14,407 bases of DNA from a virus (Duplodnaviria; Heunggongvirae; Uroviricota; Caudoviricetes). Within the stretch, counting starts at the first letter, position 1. Each line of letters begins with the position of its first letter. Position numbers and translations under genes: made by a program. The notes beneath the pieces are model-generated. The model was given only the letters and a program-made list of their open reading frames with translations, was not told the origin of the DNA and ran no database searches. The DNA is taken from IMG/VR virus record IMGVR_UViG_2874915312_000003, positions 1-14,407 of that record. One strand, 5' to 3'. Positions 201 through 14,407 of this stretch are shown piece after piece.

Positions 201-764
201 TTATTCCACGATAAAATTCCTAACCGAATTCAAATCCTTCAGACTATTCAGCTCTTCCTTCAGCTCCCGCTGACGGCGATAAATCTCATCGTTGCGATCG
301 ACCTGCGCCTGCACCATTGCTGCCGCCAGTTCTTCCAGTTCCGGCATCGACAGTTTCACCTGCTGATTATCGGCATCGCTCCACGCCATATGTGTTTGTG
401 CTGTGACAGATTTTGCCAGCATGACTACCGGGGACAGGCGGCCCAGTGAGTCGGGGCCAGCATTCCAGATACGACCGTTCCATTCAAACGTGAACGGCTT
501 CGCCTCCTGTTCTGTGCGCCATGCTTCAATTCCCTGACGTCTGGCCTCTCTGGCCGCTTCCAGCATTTCTGGTGTCACAGTGAATGGGGCTATCTCACCC
601 CATTTGCCGCTTTGCAGTTCCTGCCAGATTTGCTGACCCGTCGGAGCGACATCATCAGCGGTGGCTGTGTAGGGGACTGCCTGGTCCCTGTCGTCAAAAA
701 AAACGTCACAGTCTACTGCGCCACTTTCGGTATAACGGGGATTAATGATTTTTTTAATTTCCAC
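201..764 (-). CDS. Putative tail fibre assembly/chaperone-like protein (second tfa-like gene, directly 3' of stf)
   Basis: ORF 201..824 minus overlaps the stf stop by 50 nt. An in-frame GTG at 764 preceded by GAGGAA (6-nt spacer) is the likelier start. Assignment rests mainly on position after a tail fibre gene. Confidence 0.4.
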   Translation of the reverse strand: MEIKKIINPRYTESGAVDCDVFFDDRDQAVPYTATADDVAPTGQQIWQELQSGKWGEIAPFTVTPEMLEAAREARRQGIEAWRTEQEAKPFTFEWNGRIWNAGPDSLGRLSPVVMLAKSVTAQTHMAWSDADNQQVKLSMPELEELAAAMVQAQVDRNDEIYRRQRELKEELNSLKDLNSVRNFIVE

Positions 765-774
765 GGTGCATTCC

Positions 775-2043
775 TCACGATGTGCGAATAAAAAGCCCGG
801 GCATTGCGCCAGAGACATGAGCATCCGGCACCCCGGACAGGGCGCAATATGACCCTGGTAATGAATGCTCTGAACATCCCGTAATGAAAAATTGTGGGGA
901 TGCTATATACGTTCCGGTGGGAGTACTGGGCACTGAAATCCCCACCGGTCCCAGTCGTGAGCCTCTGTATGACTGCCCCCTGACAAGTCTGATGACTTTA
1001 TCACCGTCAGCTTCTCCCTGGTACGCAGCAATAATCAGCCCGCCAATGTCAGGGTCTCCCCATCTGTTGCGGACAGAGCTCGCCACGATTCTGTAAATAA
1101 TATCTTCTGTGGTTATATTTATTTTCACCCAGCCAGTCAGTCTGGATATGGGCCAATAGCAGTAGCGGGTGTGATAAATGGGGCCGTTAATGCCGTAAAA
1201 AGTAAGGGATTTGGCTCTGTACCGCGGTTCTGTTGTCTCAGGGCGTGCATCAGTCCACCGGATGCTGAGCACCCCTTCAAACCGTGTGTCGGGTATGATG
1301 ATGCCGTAGGGGCCAGCAACGGAATATTCACCTGGCAGCGCATTCCTTACCCAGGCCAGGAAATCACTCTTAGTGTCAAAACGGATAACATCTTCAGGCA
1401 GAAAAGCACACCCAAAGCCGAATGCGCCGGGTATCGCCAGACGGCCTTTTGTCCGGTCGTAAATGTCGCTCTGTGCTTCCATCGTGGCCGCACTTTTCAG
1501 CCCCAGATTATCCCGGGACTTCTGTTGTGCCTTTTCGCCTGCTGCTGCGATTTCAGACAGATGGTTAGCCGTTTTCAGGGTGCCGGTCAGCGCAGCATCA
1601 ATGTCATTTTTGGCCTGTTCTGCTGCGCGGGCATAACCTGCGGCTGCCGCCACATCCTGCGCCGTCTGCTGTGCGTTTCCGGCTGCGGCCCCGGCGCTCT
1701 GCTGCGCCTGCGCCACCATTTCCTCAAAGCGTTTGACGACATCCGGTTTCAGGTCGCCCTCATCAGGAGCAATCAGAAAGTCATTCAGCGTGCCGGGCTT
1801 TGAGTCCTCATATACAGCAATGTCGCCAACGTTGTACTCGTTGCGCCAGTCCTGTTTCAGATACACACCATATTTTCCAGTCCGCGCATGGAAACAGTAT
1901 TCACCATCGTTTCCTGTCATCACATCAGCAACAGTGTTCATCACCACTTCCGGGGTGTTTACCCGGGATTTCAGAATAATATGGTATCCGGACATGGGGA
2001 TACCTGCGCCATCAGTCAGCGCACCTGATATCACTACAGACAT
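775..2043 (-). CDS. stf: Side tail fibre protein, lambda Stf-like N-terminal domain
   Basis: 422-aa ORF. N-terminus MSVVISGALTDGAGIP...IAVYEDSKPGTLNDFL follows the lambda Stf N-terminal pattern (MAVKISGVLKDG...ITVYEDSQPGTLNDFL) as remembered. Followed by a tfa-like gene. Confidence 0.7.
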   Translation of the reverse strand: MSVVISGALTDGAGIPMSGYHIILKSRVNTPEVVMNTVADVMTGNDGEYCFHARTGKYGVYLKQDWRNEYNVGDIAVYEDSKPGTLNDFLIAPDEGDLKPDVVKRFEEMVAQAQQSAGAAAGNAQQTAQDVAAAAGYARAAEQAKNDIDAALTGTLKTANHLSEIAAAGEKAQQKSRDNLGLKSAATMEAQSDIYDRTKGRLAIPGAFGFGCAFLPEDVIRFDTKSDFLAWVRNALPGEYSVAGPYGIIIPDTRFEGVLSIRWTDARPETTEPRYRAKSLTFYGINGPIYHTRYCYWPISRLTGWVKINITTEDIIYRIVASSVRNRWGDPDIGGLIIAAYQGEADGDKVIRLVRGQSYRGSRLGPVGISVPSTPTGTYIASPQFFITGCSEHSLPGSYCALSGVPDAHVSGAMPGLFIRTS

Positions 2044-2066
2044 TGTTTTTCTCGCGATAAATTAAA

Positions 2067-2612
2067 TCAGGAAGAACCTTCCGGAGAGGCGGGCCATTCA
2101 ATGGCGTTGTATGAGGATTTATCAGTGATGGTGCTGAAATCCATCGCCTGCAGCGATTTCGCGTAAATACGACAGGCTTTCAGCTTTTCTTTATCTTCGT
2201 CGCTGATTAACCCCAGCAGCAGGTCTTCTTCCCATTCCCCTGTCCGGGCACTGACCTGAGCCAGAAGGGCATCACGCTCATCTTCCGCTTTGAGTCTGTA
2301 GTCAAAGACAAATTCATCATTGCGGTAAAACCAGTAACCCGGCGCGGTAATCCGTCGGTTAGCGGTAATATCAGGAACTTCAATAACACTGGCATTGCGT
2401 GGCTCGATGCCTGTCACATCCTTACCGACCCACACCACGCGACCATCTCCGGTGTAAGCTATTTTTATTGTGTCGCTGGCGAAATTCTTCAGCTCTTCAT
2501 ACCAGTTTTTTCCGTCTTCTGAAAAAAGCCAGGTGACCGAATATCGTTTTGTCATCTGATATTGTTCTGCTGTTTTCGGATTACCCGCAGTAATATTTTT
2601 TAAATGCAACAT
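2067..2612 (-). CDS. tfa: Tail fibre assembly protein Tfa
   Basis: 181-aa ORF. N-terminus MLHLKNITAGNPKTAEQYQMTK...WLFSEDGKNWYEE and C-terminal ...IEWP match E. coli prophage TfaQ/TfaR/lambda Tfa as remembered. ATG lies 2 nt after the stop of the upstream fibre fragment. Confidence 0.75.
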   Translation of the reverse strand: MLHLKNITAGNPKTAEQYQMTKRYSVTWLFSEDGKNWYEELKNFASDTIKIAYTGDGRVVWVGKDVTGIEPRNASVIEVPDITANRRITAPGYWFYRNDEFVFDYRLKAEDERDALLAQVSARTGEWEEDLLLGLISDEDKEKLKACRIYAKSLQAMDFSTITDKSSYNAIEWPASPEGSS

Positions 2613-2614
2613 TG

Positions 2615-3265
2615 TTAAATACTCGCTACGTTATACCAGGTGCCATTAATCAGTTTTTGCAGTGGTCGGTAATACACACCGTCAACGTTATCCGCTGAGT
2701 TACGGCCGGGGCTGTAATACATTTCATGGCCATACCGTACATCCTGTACCCCCTCTGTTCGATATTTATAGCGGGCATCGAAGTTTCCGTAATTTAACGG
2801 AATTACCTGTCCGTTAACAGTGAACACTATGCTGTTATCCGGGTTTCTCTGGCTGAAAAAATGCCAGCCTGAATCATCGCCAAGCTCTGCAACAACAGGC
2901 CTGGATGGATTACCCCACAAATAAAACGCTGCATTTTTCGTGGAGTTGTTGGCGCTGGATAACGTGAATTTTCTGACAGTTCCGGCCTGAATATTCTTAA
3001 AAGCAATAGCCACTCCATTCTGAAAGCGGAATACACGCTGACTATTAGCATAAACATCCAGAATACCGTCTCCATTCTGTTTAAATCCGGTGTCATTATC
3101 ACCAAGAACAATTGAATTCCCCCCCAGGGCGTTCTGAACGCCGATACCCAGCGCACCATTGACCTGCGAACCACCGCCAACAGACACTTTATGCGACATG
3201 GATATTTCACCCGTCCGCAAATTAATGGTGAACGGGCGCAGGGGACCAATATCGCCATTATTCAC
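2615..3265 (-). pseudogene. Tail fibre C-terminal (receptor-binding) domain remnant; 5' portion missing
   Basis: 216-codon ORF with Gly-rich tip-like sequence (HKVSVGGGSQVNGALGIGV...), immediately followed by tfa. Begins with GTG overlapping the holin stop and has no fibre N-terminal domain. First in-frame ATG is at 3199. Confidence 0.45.
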
Positions 3266-3473
3266 CTCTCGCAGCCTTACGCTTATCTTCTCTTATTTTG
3301 AAATACAGATTCGTCAGATAAGTCAGAAGCCCCAGAAGCAGACTTCCCAGCACACCAATCGCAGCCCACTGTGATGGACTGACCTGATCCAACCACTGCA
3401 AAAACCAGTAGCCGGCACTGCCGGCGGCGGTGCCGTAGGCAATGCCCGTTGAAATTTTGTCCATGGATTTCAT
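3258..3473 (-). CDS. Holin, lambdoid prophage EssD/EssQ type (71 aa)
   Basis: MKSMDK...[32 protein letters not shown] closely matches K-12 prophage holin EssD as remembered. SD GGAGGTGA sits upstream of the ATG. Hydrophobic core with a charged C-tail. Confidence 0.7.
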
Positions 3474-4837: not shown

Positions 4838-5656
4838 TTAAGCAGCCATCTGATGATATTTTTCCCTGAAGGCTGCCAGGGAGATATTCCCCAGACGAGA
4901 GTGACGACGCTGACGATTGTAGAAAATCTCAATGTATTCCCGTATTACTGAGATGGCTTCATCCCGGTTATTAAAACGATAGTGGCTCAGGCTCTCATTT
5001 TTCAGCGTTCCCCAGAAGCTTTCCATCGGAGCGTTGTCGTAACAGTTACCTTTACGCGACATTGATGTTTTCAGACCAAACTGCTCCTGTATGACCCGGT
5101 AATCGTATGCGCAGTACTGTGAACCTCGATCAGAGTGGTGGATTAGCCCGGCAGGTGGGCGCTGGCTCCTGAGCGCCATAAACAGGGCTTTACCTGTCAG
5201 CTCTTTTGTCATGCGCTCTCCCATGGCGTAGCCGACAATTTCGCACGTATAAACATCTTTGATGCCAGCGAGGTACAACCATCCCTCCTGTGTGGCAACA
5301 TACGTCAGGTCCGCCACCCAGACCTGATTTGGTGCTGTAGGAGCGAACGTCTGGTTCAGCAGATTTGGCGCAACTGGCAGATTGTGGTTCGGGTTCGTAG
5401 TCGCTCTGAACTTGCGTTTCTGCTTACAGCGTAGCCTTAGCTCCTTACAAAGACGTGCCAGTCGGTCACGACCAACGATGATGCCATTCTCTGCCAGCTC
5501 CGTCTGGAGCCGCCGGGTTCCATATGTTTCGCGAGTGCGGATATGTGCCACCTTAATCTCCAGTTTTAGCCGCTCATCACTTTGTTTTCTGTCTGAGGGT
5601 TCATGCTGTACCCAGTTGTAATAACCGCTCCTGGATACACCAAATACCTGACACAT
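4838..5656 (-). CDS. IS600 orfB (DDE transposase catalytic part, expressed as OrfAB by -1 frameshift)
   Basis: 272-aa ORF with IS3-family integrase-core motifs (WVADLTYV...HSDRGSQY...NAPMESFWGTLK). Confidence 0.8.
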   Translation of the reverse strand: MCQVFGVSRSGYYNWVQHEPSDRKQSDERLKLEIKVAHIRTRETYGTRRLQTELAENGIIVGRDRLARLCKELRLRCKQKRKFRATTNPNHNLPVAPNLLNQTFAPTAPNQVWVADLTYVATQEGWLYLAGIKDVYTCEIVGYAMGERMTKELTGKALFMALRSQRPPAGLIHHSDRGSQYCAYDYRVIQEQFGLKTSMSRKGNCYDNAPMESFWGTLKNESLSHYRFNNRDEAISVIREYIEIFYNRQRRHSRLGNISLAAFREKYHQMAA

Positions 5657-5691
5657 CGCTTCAATGGGAAATTGTTGTCGCCATTGTTCGA

Positions 5692-5994
5692 TTAACGCGT
5701 ATTTTTCAGCGACTCCTGTGCAAAATACGCTGTTGCTTTTTTTAATATATCTCGCTCAAGGCGAGCTTCATTTAACGCCTTACGCAGTTGCAGAATTTCA
5801 GATTCCAGTTCAGCCACCGTGCGGGAACCAGGAGTACCGAGCCCTTTTCTGGCGGCGGTAACCCATTGTCCTAAAGTGCCTTCAGGAAGAGATAATCGGG
5901 AAGCGCCTTCACTGATCGAAAGTTGATTTTCAAGAACCGTTCTGACAGCTTCGGCTTTGAACTCTTTAGAGTAACGTTGGGTTTTTCTGCTCAT
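5692..5994 (-). CDS. IS600 orfA (helix-turn-helix / leucine-zipper transposase N-terminal part)
   Basis: 100-aa ORF starting 64 nt from the IS end, with a coiled-coil ELESEILQLRKALNEARLERDILKKA typical of IS3-family OrfA. Confidence 0.8.
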   Translation of the reverse strand: MSRKTQRYSKEFKAEAVRTVLENQLSISEGASRLSLPEGTLGQWVTAARKGLGTPGSRTVAELESEILQLRKALNEARLERDILKKATAYFAQESLKNTR

Positions 5995-7822: not shown

Positions 7823-7955
7823 CGTAGTTCTCCGCTGGCGCAGTAGAATGGGTGTTCAGCCCGTTATGTAGTATACCAGAATTAATGCCAATACTAACAG
7901 GGTAATGCTGCCAACTTACTGATTTAGTGTATGATGGTGATTTTAAGGTGCTTGC

Positions 7956-8231
7956 GTGGCTTCCATTTCCATCAGATGTCCTTCCTGCTCCGCTACTGAA
8001 GGCGTGGTGCGTAACGGCAAAAGCACTGCCGGGCATCAGCGCTATCTCTGCTCTCATTGCCGTAAAACATGGCAACTACAGTTCACTTACACCGCCTCTC
8101 AGCCCGGTACGCACCAGAAAATCATTGATATGGCCATGAATGGCGTCGGATGTCGCGCCAGTGCACGCATTATGGGCGTTGGCCTCAACACGGTTTTACG
8201 TCACTTAAAAAACTCAGGCCGCAGTCGGTAA
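7956..8231 (+). CDS. insA: IS1 InsA
   Basis: [40 protein letters not shown]..., 91 aa. Confidence 0.9.
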
Positions 8232-8653
8232 CCTCGCGCATACAACCGGGCAGTGATGTGATTGTCTGCGCTGAAATGGACGAACATTGGGGCTACGTCG
8301 GTGCTAAATCACGTCAGCGCTGGCTGTTTTACGCGTATGACAGGATACGGAGGACGGTTGTGGCGCACGTCTTCGGTGAACGCACTCTGGCCACACTGGA
8401 GCGTCTTCTGAGCCTGCTGTCGGCCTTTGAGGTCGTGGTATGGATGACGGATGGCTGGCCGCTGTATGAATCACGCCTGAAGGGAAAGCTGCACGTTATC
8501 AGCAAGCGTTACACTCAGCGCATTGAGCGACATAATCTGAATCTGAGACAACATCTGGCAAGGCTGGGACGGAAGTCACTGTCGTTCTCAAAATCGGTGG
8601 AGCTGCATGACAAGGTCATCGGGCATTATCTGAACATAAAACACTATCAGTAA
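8150..8653 (+). CDS. insB: IS1 insB reading frame (expressed as InsAB' fusion by -1 frameshift at the A6C motif near 8207)
   Basis: 167-codon ORF overlapping the insA 3' end. TTAAAAAACTC slippery motif present. Confidence 0.85.
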
Positions 8654-8752
8654 GTTGGAGTCATTACCTACTAACAGGATGTTCTGACTCGCAATTCGGT
8701 AATGCTGCCAACTTACTGATTTAGTGTATGATGGTGATTTTAAGGTGCTTGC

Positions 8753-9028
8753 GTGGCTTCCATTTCCATCAGATGTCCTTCCTGCTCCGCTACTGAAGGC
8801 GTGGTGCGTAACGGCAAAAGCACTGCCGGACATCAGCGCTATCTCTGCTCTCATTGCCGTAAAACATGGCAACTACAGTTCACTTACACCGCCTCTCAGC
8901 CCGGTACGCACCAGAAAATCATTGATATGGCCATGAATGGCGTCGGATGTCGCGCCAGTGCACGCATTATGGGCGTTGGCCTCAACAGGGTTTTACGTCA
9001 CTTAAAAAACTCAGGCCGCAGTCGGTAA
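8753..9028 (+). CDS. insA: IS1 InsA (copy 2; T->R substitution relative to copies 1 and 3)
   Basis: GLNRVLRHL versus GLNTVLRHL in the other copies. Confidence 0.9.
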
Positions 9029-9450
9029 CCTCGCGCATACAACCGGGCAGTGATGTGATTGTCTGCGCTGAAATGGACGAACATTGGGGCTACGTCGGTG
9101 CTAAATCACGTCAGCGCTGGCTGTTTTACGCGTATGACAGGATACGGAGGACGGTTGTGGCGCACGTCTTCGGTGAACGCACTCTGGCCACACTGGAGCG
9201 TCTTCTGAGCCTGCTGTCGGCCTTTGAGGTCGTGGTATGGATGACGGATGGCTGTCCGCTGTATGAATCACGCCTGAAGGGAAAGCTGCACGTTATCAGC
9301 AAGCGTTACACTCAGCGCATTGAGCGACATAATCTGAATCTGAGACAACATCTGGCAAGGCTGGGACGGAAGTCACTGTCGTTCTCAAAATCGGTGGAGC
9401 TGCATGACAAGGTCATCGGGCATTATCTGAACATAAAACACTATCAGTAA
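8947..9450 (+). CDS. insB: IS1 insB frame (copy 2; W->C substitution, DGCPLYES versus DGWPLYES)
   Basis: Direct comparison of the three copies within the window. Confidence 0.85.
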
Positions 9451-9698
9451 GTTGGAGTCATTACCCGCAATTCATCCAGCAGTTTATCATTTCCCATAAT
9501 GTCACTTACCCTCATCGGTAAAAAAATTGCCTTTCGACCATTACGATACATTATTGATTTTGGGGTTTCAGGGAAGTAATCCATTTCGACTATAACTGAC
9601 AGGTCATCACGACGTATGACTGCGTATTTGCTACTAAATAGTTTCTTTATTTTTTCCACGATGCCTCCAGGTTTATAAGTACAAACGGTTATATCCAC
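9444..9698 (-). CDS. Rem-like small prophage protein; last 5 native codons replaced by 6 IS1-derived codons
   Basis: GTG start at 9698. Removing both IS1 copies and one copy of each duplication restores an 83-codon ORF ending ...LLDELRVRTSC, with its stop inside the copy-1 target duplication. Position (upstream of Q and nin proteins, downstream of hokD) mirrors rem in K-12 Qin. Identity to Rem is from memory. Confidence 0.5.
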
Positions 9699-10090: not shown

Positions 10091-10431
10091 AGCCTGCTTC
10101 TCCTTGCCTTTCGGCACGTAAGAGGCTAACCTACATTTGTGAGACATAGATTGGGCCTCAGATTAATGTTAAGCGTCTTGCAGGACGCGTAATGTTAACT
10201 GGGGCTTTTCTCTGTCTGCCTTACAGTGGCATGCCCGAGGCAGACAGCCTCAAGCACCCGCAGCAATCTTACCGATACCGATAAGAAAACGCTATTTTTT
10301 ATTGCCAGCACCTTCTATCCAGGCTAATTTATCTGCGTCAGAACGGCGCAATGCGCTCGCCTGAGATACGTTTACTTGCCATGGTAACAACAGGTAACGG
10401 CAATTGCTGTTTCTGTTTTGTTTCCTTCAAA

Positions 10432-10456
10432 AACCCCGGACCATCAATCCGGGGTT
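10432..10456. terminator. Terminator-like hairpin AACCCCGGA-CCATCAA-TCCGGGGTT with T-runs on both sides
   Basis: Plus strand is followed by TTTTTGTTTGTT (stronger); minus strand by TTTTTGAAGG. Sits directly 3' of the 27-aa peptide ORF. Confidence 0.5.
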
Positions 10457-10464
10457 TTTGTTTG

Positions 10465-10548
10465 TTAACCCCAACGGCAAATCGAATACACCACCATCGC
10501 CATCGCCATCGCAATTCCTACCGTGGTGAATGCCTCAGGCCAGGTCAT
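10465..10548 (-). CDS. Candidate 27-aa hydrophobic peptide (MTWPEAFTTVGIAMAMAMVVYSICRWG)
   Basis: Not in the ORF track (below size cutoff). ATG at 10548 has SD GGAGGTG (5-nt spacer) and overlaps the stop of the upstream frame as ATGA. TAA at 10467-10465 is followed at once by the hairpin. Contains three tandem GCGATG codon pairs (plus-strand CATCGC x3 at 10495-10512). Confidence 0.35.
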   Translation of the reverse strand: MTWPEAFTTVGIAMAMAMVVYSICRWG

Positions 10549-10906
10549 TGATTCACCTCCTGCGGTGGTTCCGGTAGCGGCATCCAGTGAGTTGAGCTCT
10601 CTACTTCAACGCCGTCTTTGTCCACAAAAGCCATCTTATTCCCGCCACGAGTGGGGCAAAAAACCTTATCCCAGGAACCGGGGAATACATTCCCGAGATC
10701 ATCGAGAAGAATCACATCGCAATATTCAGCAGGAACTGCATCACTACAGCTTATCCAGCTAGAGTTACCGGAGAGTTGCCAGCCTTACGCATGGCCATTT
10801 CCACGATTTCAACCATATCTCCTGGTGGAATTTTACAAAGTTGCCCAATACATTTCTGCTGCCTGGCATATTCGAGAATGTGCTCCAATTTGGTTCGATT
10901 AATCAT
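10545..10906 (-). pseudogene. Gene split into two frames: 51-aa N-terminal ORF (10906..10751) plus 79-codon open frame (10784..10545), probable frameshift
   Basis: Frame A MINRTKLEHILEYARQQKCIGQLCKIPPGDMVEIVEMAMRKAGNSPVTLAG has SD AAGGGAG and overlaps the upstream stop (TAATG). Frame B ...SCSDAVPAEYCDVILLDDLGNVFPGSWDKVFCPTRGGNKMAFVDKDGVEVESSTHWMPLPEPPQEVNQ has no plausible start of its own. The frames overlap at 10751-10784 around a direct repeat AACTCT x2. Confidence 0.35.
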
Positions 10907-11571
10907 TATTTATCTCCCTTAAGCATGGCAGCGCGGCAGGCGTTCCAGCCATCAACATAATCAAACGTATTACTATCGTTTGGCCCGATTTCATCCGGCA
11001 CTATCGGCTCTGGTTGGATAGTGACGTTGGCAAAGGCAGCACGCAAACCGGTTTTAATTTCTTCGATTTCATCAGAGCCAAGCGATGAATCTGACAGTGC
11101 GTGATGGAATGCGTAAGCCATGTCGTCGTTTACTGCAACCGGTACTGCCGGCGCTGCGTAAAGCGGTGTTATATCTGCCCGAAAATCACATGCTTTATGC
11201 AGTCGTACCCAACGCTCAACTTCCGCTTTGTCAAAATATATAGCAGTGAACGTATTAGATTCCTGGTCAACTTGAGTAAACGTCACCTTCCACGCTACAG
11301 CTACGGCTTTCCATCCATCAGGTTGTCGCATTCGCGGGGCAGCATAAAGCTCATGCATTCCATCAGGCAGCGAGTGACCCACATACTCACCGAACCCGTC
11401 AATACACATGCCCCCATCTTCAACAATGCATTCCGCTACAGGCTCTGCTTCCAGTGATGCCAGAGCGATAAGCGCCAGTTCACGAATTTCACCGCCGTCT
11501 ATATCGTCAATATCATCGCGGCCAGAAATGTTAGCCAGCCATTGCAGTCGCTCTTTGGTAATAGTGGTCAT
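10906..11571 (-). CDS. Acidic 221-aa hypothetical prophage protein
   Basis: Long ORF with start overlapping the HNH stop (ATGA). Internal repeat of LYAAP motifs (ELYAAPRMRQPDGWK and ITPLYAAPAVPVA). Confidence 0.5.
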   Translation of the reverse strand: MTTITKERLQWLANISGRDDIDDIDGGEIRELALIALASLEAEPVAECIVEDGGMCIDGFGEYVGHSLPDGMHELYAAPRMRQPDGWKAVAVAWKVTFTQVDQESNTFTAIYFDKAEVERWVRLHKACDFRADITPLYAAPAVPVAVNDDMAYAFHHALSDSSLGSDEIEEIKTGLRAAFANVTIQPEPIVPDEIGPNDSNTFDYVDGWNACRAAMLKGDK

Positions 11572-11933: not shown

Positions 11934-12189
11934 ATCAGCTTTCCTTATACGGATTAATTTTATTGTGCAGTGTGTTGAATGACGCCCATACCACGTCGTT
12001 ATACAATTCAATAACTGGCTCAATTATTTTTCCGATTATCCAGACAAAAATTAGCGGGGATATCGGTGTCATCAACACGATAAACAGAATGAGAAACAGG
12101 AATTCTGTTGTTCTACTCTTTCGCGGATATTTTTGGTAATGCTGCCAACTTACTGATTTAGTGTATGATGGTGATTTTAAGGTGCTTGC

Positions 12190-12465
12190 GTGGCTTCCAT
12201 TTCCATCAGATGTCCTTCCTGCTCCGCTACTGAAGGCGTGGTGCGTAACGGCAAAAGCACTGCCGGACATCAGCGCTATCTCTGCTCTCATTGCCGTAAA
12301 ACATGGCAACTACAGTTCACTTACACCGCCTCTCAGCCCGGTACGCACCAGAAAATCATTGATATGGCCATGAATGGCGTCGGATGTCGCGCCAGTGCAC
12401 GCATTATGGGCGTTGGCCTCAACACGGTTTTACGTCACTTAAAAAACTCAGGCCGCAGTCGGTAA
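12190..12465 (+). CDS. insA: IS1 InsA (copy 3)
   Basis: Protein identical to copy 1 InsA. Confidence 0.9.
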
Positions 12466-12887
12466 CCTCGCGCATACAACCGGGCAGTGATGTGATTGTC
12501 TGCGCTGAAATGGACGAACATTGGGGCTACGTCGGTGCTAAATCACGTCAGCGCTGGCTGTTTTACGCGTATGACAGGATACGGAGGACGGTTGTGGCGC
12601 ACGTCTTCGGTGAACGCACTCTGGCCACACTGGAGCGTCTTCTGAGCCTGCTGTCGGCCTTTGAGGTCGTGGTATGGATGACGGATGGCTGGCCGCTGTA
12701 TGAATCACGCCTGAAGGGAAAGCTGCACGTTATCAGCAAGCGTTACACTCAGCGCATTGAGCGACATAATCTGAATCTGAGACAACATCTGGCAAGGCTG
12801 GGACGGAAGTCACTGTCGTTCTCAAAATCGGTGGAGCTGCATGACAAGGTCATCGGGCATTATCTGAACATAAAACACTATCAGTAA
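12384..12887 (+). CDS. insB: IS1 insB frame (copy 3)
   Basis: Protein identical to copy 1. Confidence 0.85.
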
Positions 12888-13022
12888 GTTGGAGTCATTA
12901 CCGATATTTTTTTCTAAATAATGTAACCATTCATTACCGCCCTTTCGGGCGGTCTCCTGATGATTTGAGGGTGCAGAAATCCCTCCGGTTAGAGATTAAA
13001 TTTTTAACAGTGCTAAATTTAA

Positions 13023-13256: not shown

Positions 13257-14407
<1,151 letters not shown>

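What the first reader, a model, noticed from the sequence alone, without database searches (positions are those of the whole stretch)
10545..10906. Gene immediately upstream of the peptide is split across two reading frames
A 51-codon ORF with an excellent SD stops at 10751. The adjacent frame is open from 10784 to 10545 and reads as ordinary protein sequence but lacks a start. The frames overlap across a short AACTCT direct repeat. This is the signature of a single-nucleotide indel, or less likely a programmed frameshift or a sequencing error. The restored product would be about 120-130 aa of unknown function, sitting between the HNH/221-aa pair and the peptide-hok module.
Basis: seen in the sequence. 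Interest (0 to 1): 0.4.

Follow-up and report, generated by a model that had tools for sequence, protein, structure and literature searches.

The report
Frameshifted DUF551 prophage pseudogene
A small phage gene of unknown function (a DUF551-family gene) in a decaying, IS-riddled Shigella flexneri prophage has been broken in two by loss of one 4-base CTGG repeat unit; this is an ordinary pseudogene.

Summary
On the minus strand, a 51-codon ORF (10906-10751) is followed by an 80-codon open frame (10784-10545) with no usable start. That second frame is a full-length Pfam DUF551 domain (E 2.5e-19). In the two closest E. coli prophages (98.6% DNA identity) both halves form one 121-aa gene, WP_038341689.1. 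The same is true in phage HK022, in Stx phages and in 41 diverse homologue clusters.

The lesion is a 4-nt deletion, not a single-base indel. An intact S. flexneri allele reads ACT(CTGG)3ATA. Some isolates read ACT(CTGG)2ATAA, which is frameshifted. The window has that allele plus a G>A change (CTAGCTGG).

The truncated 51-aa product is encoded on at least 24 contigs from independent assemblies, so this is not a sequencing error. There is no slippery heptamer, and the frameshift is not conserved, so it is not programmed recoding. Other lineages carry different frameshifts in the same gene.

The window matches the S. flexneri 89-141 chromosome (CP026803.1) exactly in every stretch compared.

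The break falls in the predicted disordered linker between an N-terminal helical hairpin and the DUF551 beta domain. Interest is low.

The parts
10751..10906 (-). 5' fragment of the DUF551-family gene. It has 51 codons plus a premature TAA (10753-10751). It encodes the N-terminal helical-hairpin module and part of the linker.
   Evidence: ORF list. It is identical to residues 1-48 of the intact 121-aa protein WP_038341689.1. The AF2 model shows helices 4-19 and 28-41.
10545..10784 (-). 3' fragment of the same gene in the -1 frame. It has 79 sense codons plus TGA and contains a complete DUF551 domain. It has no usable start: the only candidate is GTG at 10715, which lacks an SD.
   Evidence: Translation. 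Pfam PF04448 at E 2.5e-19, covering profile 1-68 of 68. The DNA is identical to the intact E. coli allele across the whole domain.
10755..10762 (-). The lesion. CTAGCTGG is the remnant of a (CTGG)3 tetranucleotide tract that lost one unit (a 4-nt deletion, equivalent to a -1 frame change). It then acquired a G>A change at 10760.
   Evidence: Allele series at DNA level. Intact Pro allele: ACTCCGGCTGGCTGGATA (L001, L002). Intact Leu allele: ACTCTGGCTGGCTGGATA (L020, L021). Frameshifted: ACTCTGGCTGGATAA (L004, L008, L012). Window type: ACTCTAGCTGGATAA (L003, L005-7, L009-11).
10761..10777 (-). It is not the cause of the frameshift.
   Evidence: Read. In the Pro allele the second copy is AACTCC. 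The intact Leu allele also has both copies.
10906..11571 (-). Upstream 221-aa gene of unknown function. Its stop overlaps the start of the split gene (TAATG). A relative of this gene is fused in frame to the same DUF551 domain elsewhere.
   Evidence: no Pfam family. (PHROG 60 and others, function unknown). The 234-aa fusion ORF is L014:967-1671.
10465..10548 (-). Downstream 27-aa hydrophobic peptide ORF, MTWPEAFTTVGIAMAMAMVVYSICRWG. It has an ATGA overlap with the DUF551 stop and its own GGAGG SD. It contains a (GCGATG)3 repeat.
   Evidence: Sequence. Conservation and repeat-number variation across loci. TRF row 10494-10512.
10428..10460 (.). 13-bp G+C-rich hairpin with T/A runs on both sides. 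It looks like a bidirectional intrinsic terminator and closes the HNH / 221-aa / DUF551 / peptide gene string.

Best explanation
This is a recently inactivated pseudogene of a lambdoid-phage DUF551-family gene, which is 121 aa when intact. It lies in an IS-riddled prophage remnant of Shigella flexneri.

The most likely mutational path has three steps:
1. A C>T change (Pro49 to Leu) turned ACTCCGGCTGGCTGG into ACT(CTGG)3.
2. Slipped-strand mispairing on this tetranucleotide tract removed one CTGG unit. This shifted the frame by -1 and put a TAA two codons later.
3. A G>A change turned the tract into CTAGCTGG, which interrupts the repeat, so regaining a unit by slippage is unlikely.

The consequences are as follows. 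Ribosomes that start at the good SD make only a 51-aa fragment, comprising the N-terminal helical hairpin and half of the linker. The DUF551 beta domain is no longer translated, because it has no start or SD of its own. The downstream peptide ORF loses its ATGA coupling but keeps its own SD.

Shown: the lesion, the allele series, the intact one-frame architecture in relatives, and the reality of the allele in many independent assemblies.

Inferred: the order of the mutations, slippage as the mechanism, and the loss of DUF551 expression.
For: - The second frame is a full DUF551 domain.
- An intact 121-aa gene lies at the same position (HNH, 221-aa gene, DUF551, hok) in E. coli FDAARGOS_944 and VL40. 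The flanking DNA is 98.6% identical and the whole DUF551 part is identical.
- Four alleles form a stepwise series at the DNA level. The intact Leu allele protein (P0014, P0032) is labelled S. flexneri.
- The 51-aa product is encoded on 24 contigs that were read, from 28 index blocks. These include several NCBI assemblies and Logan per-run assemblies, and they show two sub-variants.
- One-frame homologues exist in HK022 (HK022_35, 121 aa), YYZ-2008 gp05, phage 2851, Stx2 phage 86 and 41 clusters at 53-65% identity. All are contiguous across ...GNSPVTPDGWISCS....
- There is no X XXY YYZ heptamer in the ORF.
- Independent, different frameshifts occur in the same gene in other lineages (P0038, P0062).
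- The context is a decaying prophage: three IS1 copies and IS3-family elements, with tail-fibre genes lying close to the holin gene.
- The window equals CP026803.1 in all stretches tested. PMC9455713 lists that accession as S. flexneri 89-141.
Against: - No expression data exist. A low level of termination-reinitiation at GTG 10715, 36 nt after the stop, cannot be excluded.
- The order of the C>T change, the deletion and the G>A change is the most parsimonious path through observed alleles. It is not a dated phylogeny.
- The 3' half carries no further damage, so selection on it cannot be judged.
Confidence: 0.93

Rival explanations
1. Programmed -1 ribosomal frameshifting. The two frames would be joined during translation to give a full-length protein plus a short 51-aa product.
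For: The frame offset is -1, and the frames overlap by 31 nt (10784-10754).
Against: - There is no X XXY YYZ slippery heptamer anywhere in the ORF. The only run of 4 or more identical bases is an AAAA far upstream of the overlap.
- The frameshift is absent from the nearest relatives and from all 41 diverse homologue clusters, HK022 and the Stx phages.
- It is explained by a simple 4-nt deletion with observed intermediates.
Confidence: 0.01
2. Sequencing or assembly error in the source genome.
For: None specific. Indels are a common assembly artefact.
Against: - The exact 51-aa product is encoded on 24 contigs that were read. They come from different NCBI assemblies and from independently assembled sequencing runs.
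- The carriers fall into two sub-variants (CTGGCTGG and CTAGCTGG). These co-vary with a separate change in the neighbouring peptide ORF, AVAL against (AM)n. That pattern indicates inherited alleles.
- A 4-nt loss in a non-homopolymer context is not a typical platform error (general knowledge).
Confidence: 0.01
3. The 51-aa ORF is a functional stand-alone gene (N-terminal module only), kept because the short helical product is useful without DUF551. Alternatively, the CTGG tract acts as a reversible on/off (phase-variation) switch.
For: - The N-terminal 56 residues are the most conserved part of the family.
- PHROG 24004 is a 56-position family that matches only this part.
- The SD and the coupling to the upstream gene are intact.
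- Both (CTGG)3 and (CTGG)2 alleles exist in Shigella.
Against: - Every phage homologue I inspected carries the N-terminal module fused to a DUF551 domain in one frame.
- Three repeat units is far below the tract lengths of known contingency loci (general knowledge).
- In the window allele the tract is interrupted by G>A (CTAGCTGG), so reversal by slippage is unlikely.
- Other lineages inactivate the gene at other positions, which fits dispensability rather than switching.
Confidence: 0.04

Closest known systems
E. coli prophage protein WP_038341689.1 (DUF551 domain-containing protein, 121 aa; FDAARGOS_944 I6H01_RS24495 and VL40 ACNUJ8_RS11575)
   Same: It sits at the same position in the same gene string (DUF4014, HNH, 221-aa gene, DUF551, hok). 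The DNA is 98.6% identical over 561 nt and identical across the DUF551 domain.
   Different: It is intact. It reads ...VTPAGW..., with CCGGCTGGCTGG where the window has CTAGCTGG (a 4-nt deletion and 2 substitutions).
Phage HK022 gene HK022_35 (121 aa, annotated 'Homolog of P22 EaA C-term half'), and the Stx-phage genes YYZ-2008 gp05, phage 2851 EP2851_03 and Stx2 phage 86 orf44
   Same: They have the same two-module architecture in one frame: an N-terminal module (84% identical to the 51-aa ORF by tblastn), the linker GNSPVTPDGW, and then DUF551.
   Different: The central DUF551 core is very different, since this part of the family is hypervariable. In these phages the gene lies in the early-left ea22/xis-int region rather than next to hok.
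YfdS of the E. coli K-12 CPS-53 prophage, and the Ea22 V2 variant of Stx phages (other DUF551 carriers)
   Same: They carry the same Pfam/InterPro domain (DUF551, IPR007539). PMC10834534 describes it as a portable domain of unknown function. PMC4776307 and PMC10834534 both cite the H2O2 sensitivity of yfdS mutants.
   Different: Their N-terminal parts differ. I did not compare them directly with this protein, and no biochemical function is known for any of them.
Prophage pseudogenes in Shigella (genome reduction with IS expansion)
   Same: This is a frameshifted accessory gene inside a prophage remnant cut by IS1 and IS3-family elements.
   Different: Nothing unusual. The only extra is that the mutational intermediates are all observable.

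Membership tests
Pfam DUF551 (PF04448) | The sequence matches the family HMM above the curated gathering score. | tested here: met
   The second frame (10784-10548) scores 70.3 bits against a cut-off of 22, at E 2.5e-19, and covers profile 1-68 of 68. The 51-aa ORF alone matches no Pfam family.
Frameshifted pseudogene | Close relatives carry both parts in one uninterrupted frame at the same locus. | tested here: met
   L001:6095-6460 and L002 encode the 121-aa WP_038341689.1. L020 and L021 carry the intact Leu allele.
Frameshifted pseudogene | A defined lesion accounts for the frame change. | tested here: met
   There is a 4-nt gap in the pairwise alignment at the frame junction. The change from (CTGG)3 to (CTGG)2 is seen across alleles.
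Frameshifted pseudogene | The lesion is real and not an assembly artefact. | tested here: met
   The same product is encoded on 24 contigs from independent assemblies and runs, in two linked sub-variants. Read-level data could not be inspected.
Frameshifted pseudogene | No full-length product is made. | not testable with these tools
   This needs proteomics or ribosome profiling. The sequence shows only that there is no SD before GTG 10715.
Programmed -1 ribosomal frameshift | A slippery heptamer X XXY YYZ lies in the zero frame within the frame overlap. | tested here: not met
   None was found in the whole 156-nt ORF.
Programmed -1 ribosomal frameshift | The two-frame arrangement is conserved among homologues. 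| tested here: not met
   All 41 aligned clusters, HK022 and the Stx phages have a single frame.
Programmed -1 ribosomal frameshift | A stimulatory downstream structure or an internal SD. | not tested
   This is moot without a slippery site.
Phase-variable simple-sequence contingency locus | A long uninterrupted repeat tract whose unit number switches the frame on and off. | tested here: not met
   The tract has at most 3 units in any allele seen. In the window it is 1 perfect unit plus 1 mutated unit (CTAG CTGG).

The most novel reading that the evidence does not exclude
The 51-aa N-terminal helical module is retained as a functional stand-alone product after loss of the DUF551 domain. It might, for example, still bind the partner of the full-length protein. 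Alternatively, the short CTGG tract gives low-rate reversible switching of a phage accessory gene in Shigella.
Probability: 0.04. Interest if true: 0.35.

Novelty: already known. Interest (0 to 1): 0.08.

Why it matters
It matters little beyond correct annotation. The two ORFs should be annotated as one frameshifted DUF551 pseudogene, not as two hypothetical genes.

It is one more example of prophage decay in Shigella flexneri. It is a tidy one, because every mutational step can be seen in public assemblies: a substitution that creates a (CTGG)3 tract, loss of one unit, then a further substitution. The ΔCTGG and G>A alleles could serve as lineage markers.

The family itself is uncharacterised. 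It has a conserved N-terminal hairpin and a hypervariable DUF551 core, and it is widespread in lambdoid and Stx phages. That is where any real biological interest lies.

Tried and rejected
- **Single-nucleotide indel.** Rejected. The alignment shows a 4-nt gap plus a substitution.
- **AACTCT repeat as the slippage site.** Rejected. Both copies are present in the intact Leu allele, and the lost bases belong to the CTGG tract.
- **The 56-aa GTG-start ORF (10715-10545) as a marker of frameshifted alleles elsewhere.** Rejected. The contigs that carry it (L013-L019) lack the 51-aa N-terminal module, and in L014, the only one inspected, it is part of a 234-aa in-frame fusion ORF.
- **Function by sequence.** There was no PDB sequence match at E up to 1. 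All PHROG matches are 'unknown function'.
- **Literature.** DUF551 is described only as an uncharacterised portable domain.
- The first Pfam call failed because I had the peptide ORF coordinates off by one.

Full report
**1. Observation**

On the minus strand, a 51-codon ORF runs from the ATG at 10906 to a TAA at 10753-10751. A GGGAG lies 7 nt upstream of the ATG, and the ATG overlaps the stop of the preceding 221-aa gene (TAATG).

The frame at -1 relative to this ORF is open from 10784 to the TGA at 10547-10545. It translates to GWQLSGNSSWISCSDAVPAEYCDVILLDDLGNVFPGSWDKVFCPTRGGNKMAFVDKDGVEVESSTHWMPLPEPPQEVNQ. Its only in-frame start ahead of the domain core is GTG 10715, and no Shine-Dalgarno precedes it. 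The AACTCT hexamer occurs at 10777-10772 and at 10766-10761.

The description is therefore accurate. The second frame is real coding sequence: it matches Pfam DUF551 (PF04448) over the whole 68-position profile at 70.3 bits, E 2.5e-19. The 51-aa ORF has no Pfam match.

**2. What it is**

A megablast of 10440-11000 against 5,426 complete E. coli genomes found two that cover the whole query. They are FDAARGOS_944, at 98.6% identity, and VL40.

In both, the annotated gene order is DUF4014, HNH endonuclease, 221-aa hypothetical, DUF551 protein (366 nt, WP_038341689.1), then Hok/Gef. This is the same order as in the window.

The pairwise DNA alignment shows a 4-nt gap and one adjacent substitution at the point where the window's frames change. 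There are no differences in the rest of the DUF551 part. The E. coli gene translates to a 121-aa protein. It reads MINRTK...GNSPVTPAGWISCSD...PPQEVNQ and joins the two window halves.

**3. The lesion and its history**

Exact look-ups of the 51-aa product and of related cluster members returned contigs that carry intermediate alleles. At the DNA level the alleles are:

| Allele | Sequence | Loci |
|---|---|---|
| Intact, Pro | GTAACTCCGGCTGGCTGGATA | L001, L002 |
| Intact, Leu, (CTGG)3 | GTAACTCTGGCTGGCTGGATA | L020, L021 (protein labelled S. flexneri) |
| Frameshifted, (CTGG)2 | GTAACTCTGGCTGGATAA | L004, L008, L012 |
| Frameshifted plus G>A | GTAACTCTAGCTGGATAA | window, L003, L005-L007, L009-L011 |

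The simplest path is as follows. A C>T change created a three-unit tetranucleotide tract. One CTGG unit was then lost, most likely by slippage, although that mechanism is inferred. This gave a -1 frame change and a stop two codons later. A G>A change at 10760 followed.

The AACTCT repeat is incidental, because both copies are also present in the intact Leu allele.

**4. Not an artefact, not recoding**

The exact 51-aa product is encoded on 24 contigs that were read, from 28 index blocks. They come from several NCBI assemblies and from independently assembled sequencing runs.

The two frameshifted sub-variants co-vary with a separate difference in the neighbouring small ORF: AVAL against (AM)n. 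That is how inherited alleles behave, not random errors.

The ORF contains no X XXY YYZ heptamer. All homologues I examined are single-frame:
- HK022_35, 121 aa.
- YYZ-2008 gp05, phage 2851 EP2851_03 and Stx2 phage 86 orf44.
- 41 clusters at 53-65% identity, whose alignment runs straight through GNSPVTPDGWISCS.

Other lineages carry different frameshifts in the same gene. P0038 shifts after ...GNVFP, and P0062 shifts after ...DKVF. This indicates that the gene is repeatedly lost, not regulated by recoding.

**5. Source and context**

A 2.2-kb stretch and nine 300-mers of the window match L003 exactly at consistent offsets. L003 is CP026803.1 (assembly GCA_002946695.1). PMC9455713 lists that accession as the chromosome of Shigella flexneri 89-141, serotype Y.

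The window is a degraded lambdoid prophage. It holds:
- three direct IS1 copies, starting at about 7901, 8698 and 12135;
- IS3-family transposase genes at 4838-5994 and 13257-14407;
- an ORF6N gene and the DUF1133 (Q-like), DUF1364 and DUF1367 genes;
- a holin gene at 3258-3473, with a tail-fibre assembly gene (2067-2612) and other tail-fibre genes (201-2043) close by, separated from it only by an ORF with no Pfam match (2615-3265).

The DUF551 pseudogene lies in the segment between the second and third IS1 copies.

**6. How it works now, and what the intact protein looks like**

An AF2 model of the intact Leu-type protein was built from the 41-sequence alignment (mean pLDDT 76.6). It shows:
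- an N-terminal helical hairpin, helices 4-19 and 28-41, with pLDDT about 65-75;
- a low-confidence linker, residues 43-48, with pLDDT below 50;
- a four-stranded beta domain, residues 64-111, with pLDDT 84-90.

The frameshift falls at residues 49-51, at the end of the linker. The 51-aa product is therefore the N-terminal module alone, and the DUF551 domain is left untranslated (inferred).

The literature describes DUF551 only as a portable domain of unknown function. It is found in YfdS of CPS-53 and in an Ea22 variant of Stx phages. The function of the intact gene therefore remains unassigned. I would guess a small binding module used in early phage-host interplay, but nothing here tests that.

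**7. Novelty and verdict**

This is an ordinary, recent pseudogene of a known family of unknown function, in a decaying Shigella prophage. It is already present in public databases: NCBI names the fragment [quoted passage not shown].

Interest is low. The only pleasing feature is that the full mutational path is visible.

Noticed in passing
window 10465-10548 (-), repeat at 10494-10512: An unannotated 27-aa hydrophobic peptide ORF, MTWPEAFTTVGIAMAMAMVVYSICRWG. It has an ATGA overlap with the DUF551 stop and its own GGAGG SD. It contains an in-frame (GCGATG)n repeat whose copy number varies (3, 4 or 5) among S. flexneri contigs that carry the window-type allele (L003, L005-L011). E. coli and the ΔCTGG-only contigs have the non-repetitive AVAL form.
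   Followed up: partly
L014:967-1671, compared with window 10906-11571 (-): In other E. coli prophages, a relative of the upstream 221-aa protein is fused in frame to the very same DUF551 C-terminal domain, giving a 234-aa ORF. The 221-aa protein itself ends in ...DGWNACRAAML, which resembles the DGWISCS start of DUF551. This suggests domain shuffling and a functional link between the two genes.
   Followed up: partly
alignment A4 (family of the split gene): Across 41 homologue clusters, the first 56 residues or so and the last 15 or so (THWMPLPEPPQEV) are nearly invariant. The central 45 residues or so of the DUF551 domain are hypervariable in sequence and length. This could be a mosaic pattern or diversifying selection, and it is unexplained.
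   Followed up: no
window 7901-9465 and 12135-12902 (approximate IS1 ends): There are three IS1 copies in direct orientation. Two are almost back to back, with start-to-start spacing of 797 nt. The second and third bracket the segment that runs from hok through the peptide ORF, DUF551 and the 221-aa gene to HNH, in the manner of a composite transposon. The DUF4014 gene is cut at its start by the third copy, and the 84-aa ORF 9444-9698 runs into the second copy.
   Followed up: no
P0038 and P0062 (homologues from other genomes): Independent frameshift alleles of the same gene exist at other positions. P0038 shifts after ...GNVFP, at a CCCC run. P0062 shifts after ...DKVF. P0038 comes from a 4.53-Mb contig.
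   Followed up: no
PHROG 24004, compared with window 10751-10906 (-): A PHROG family of only 56 positions matches just the N-terminal module (E 2e-37). In some phage genomes this piece is therefore annotated as a separate short protein. I did not resolve whether those are real short genes or similar split genes. Every phage homologue I inspected was full length.
   Followed up: partly
L022 (phage 2851) 905-1261: In phage 2851, the gene just upstream of the DUF551 homologue is annotated as 'N-terminal half' and 'C-terminal half'. In Stx2a_WGPS4 and WGPS6 it is annotated as a pseudogene, whereas YYZ-2008 has it intact (gp06). This is another split gene in the same neighbourhood of Stx phages.
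   Followed up: no
window 201-3473 (-): The lysis cassette appears reduced to the holin gene. Just downstream of it (2615-3265) the window has an ORF with no Pfam match, where E. coli FDAARGOS_944 likewise has a 630-nt hypothetical gene before its lysozyme gene. Tail-fibre assembly and tail-fibre genes follow. This implies a large internal deletion of the prophage.
   Followed up: no
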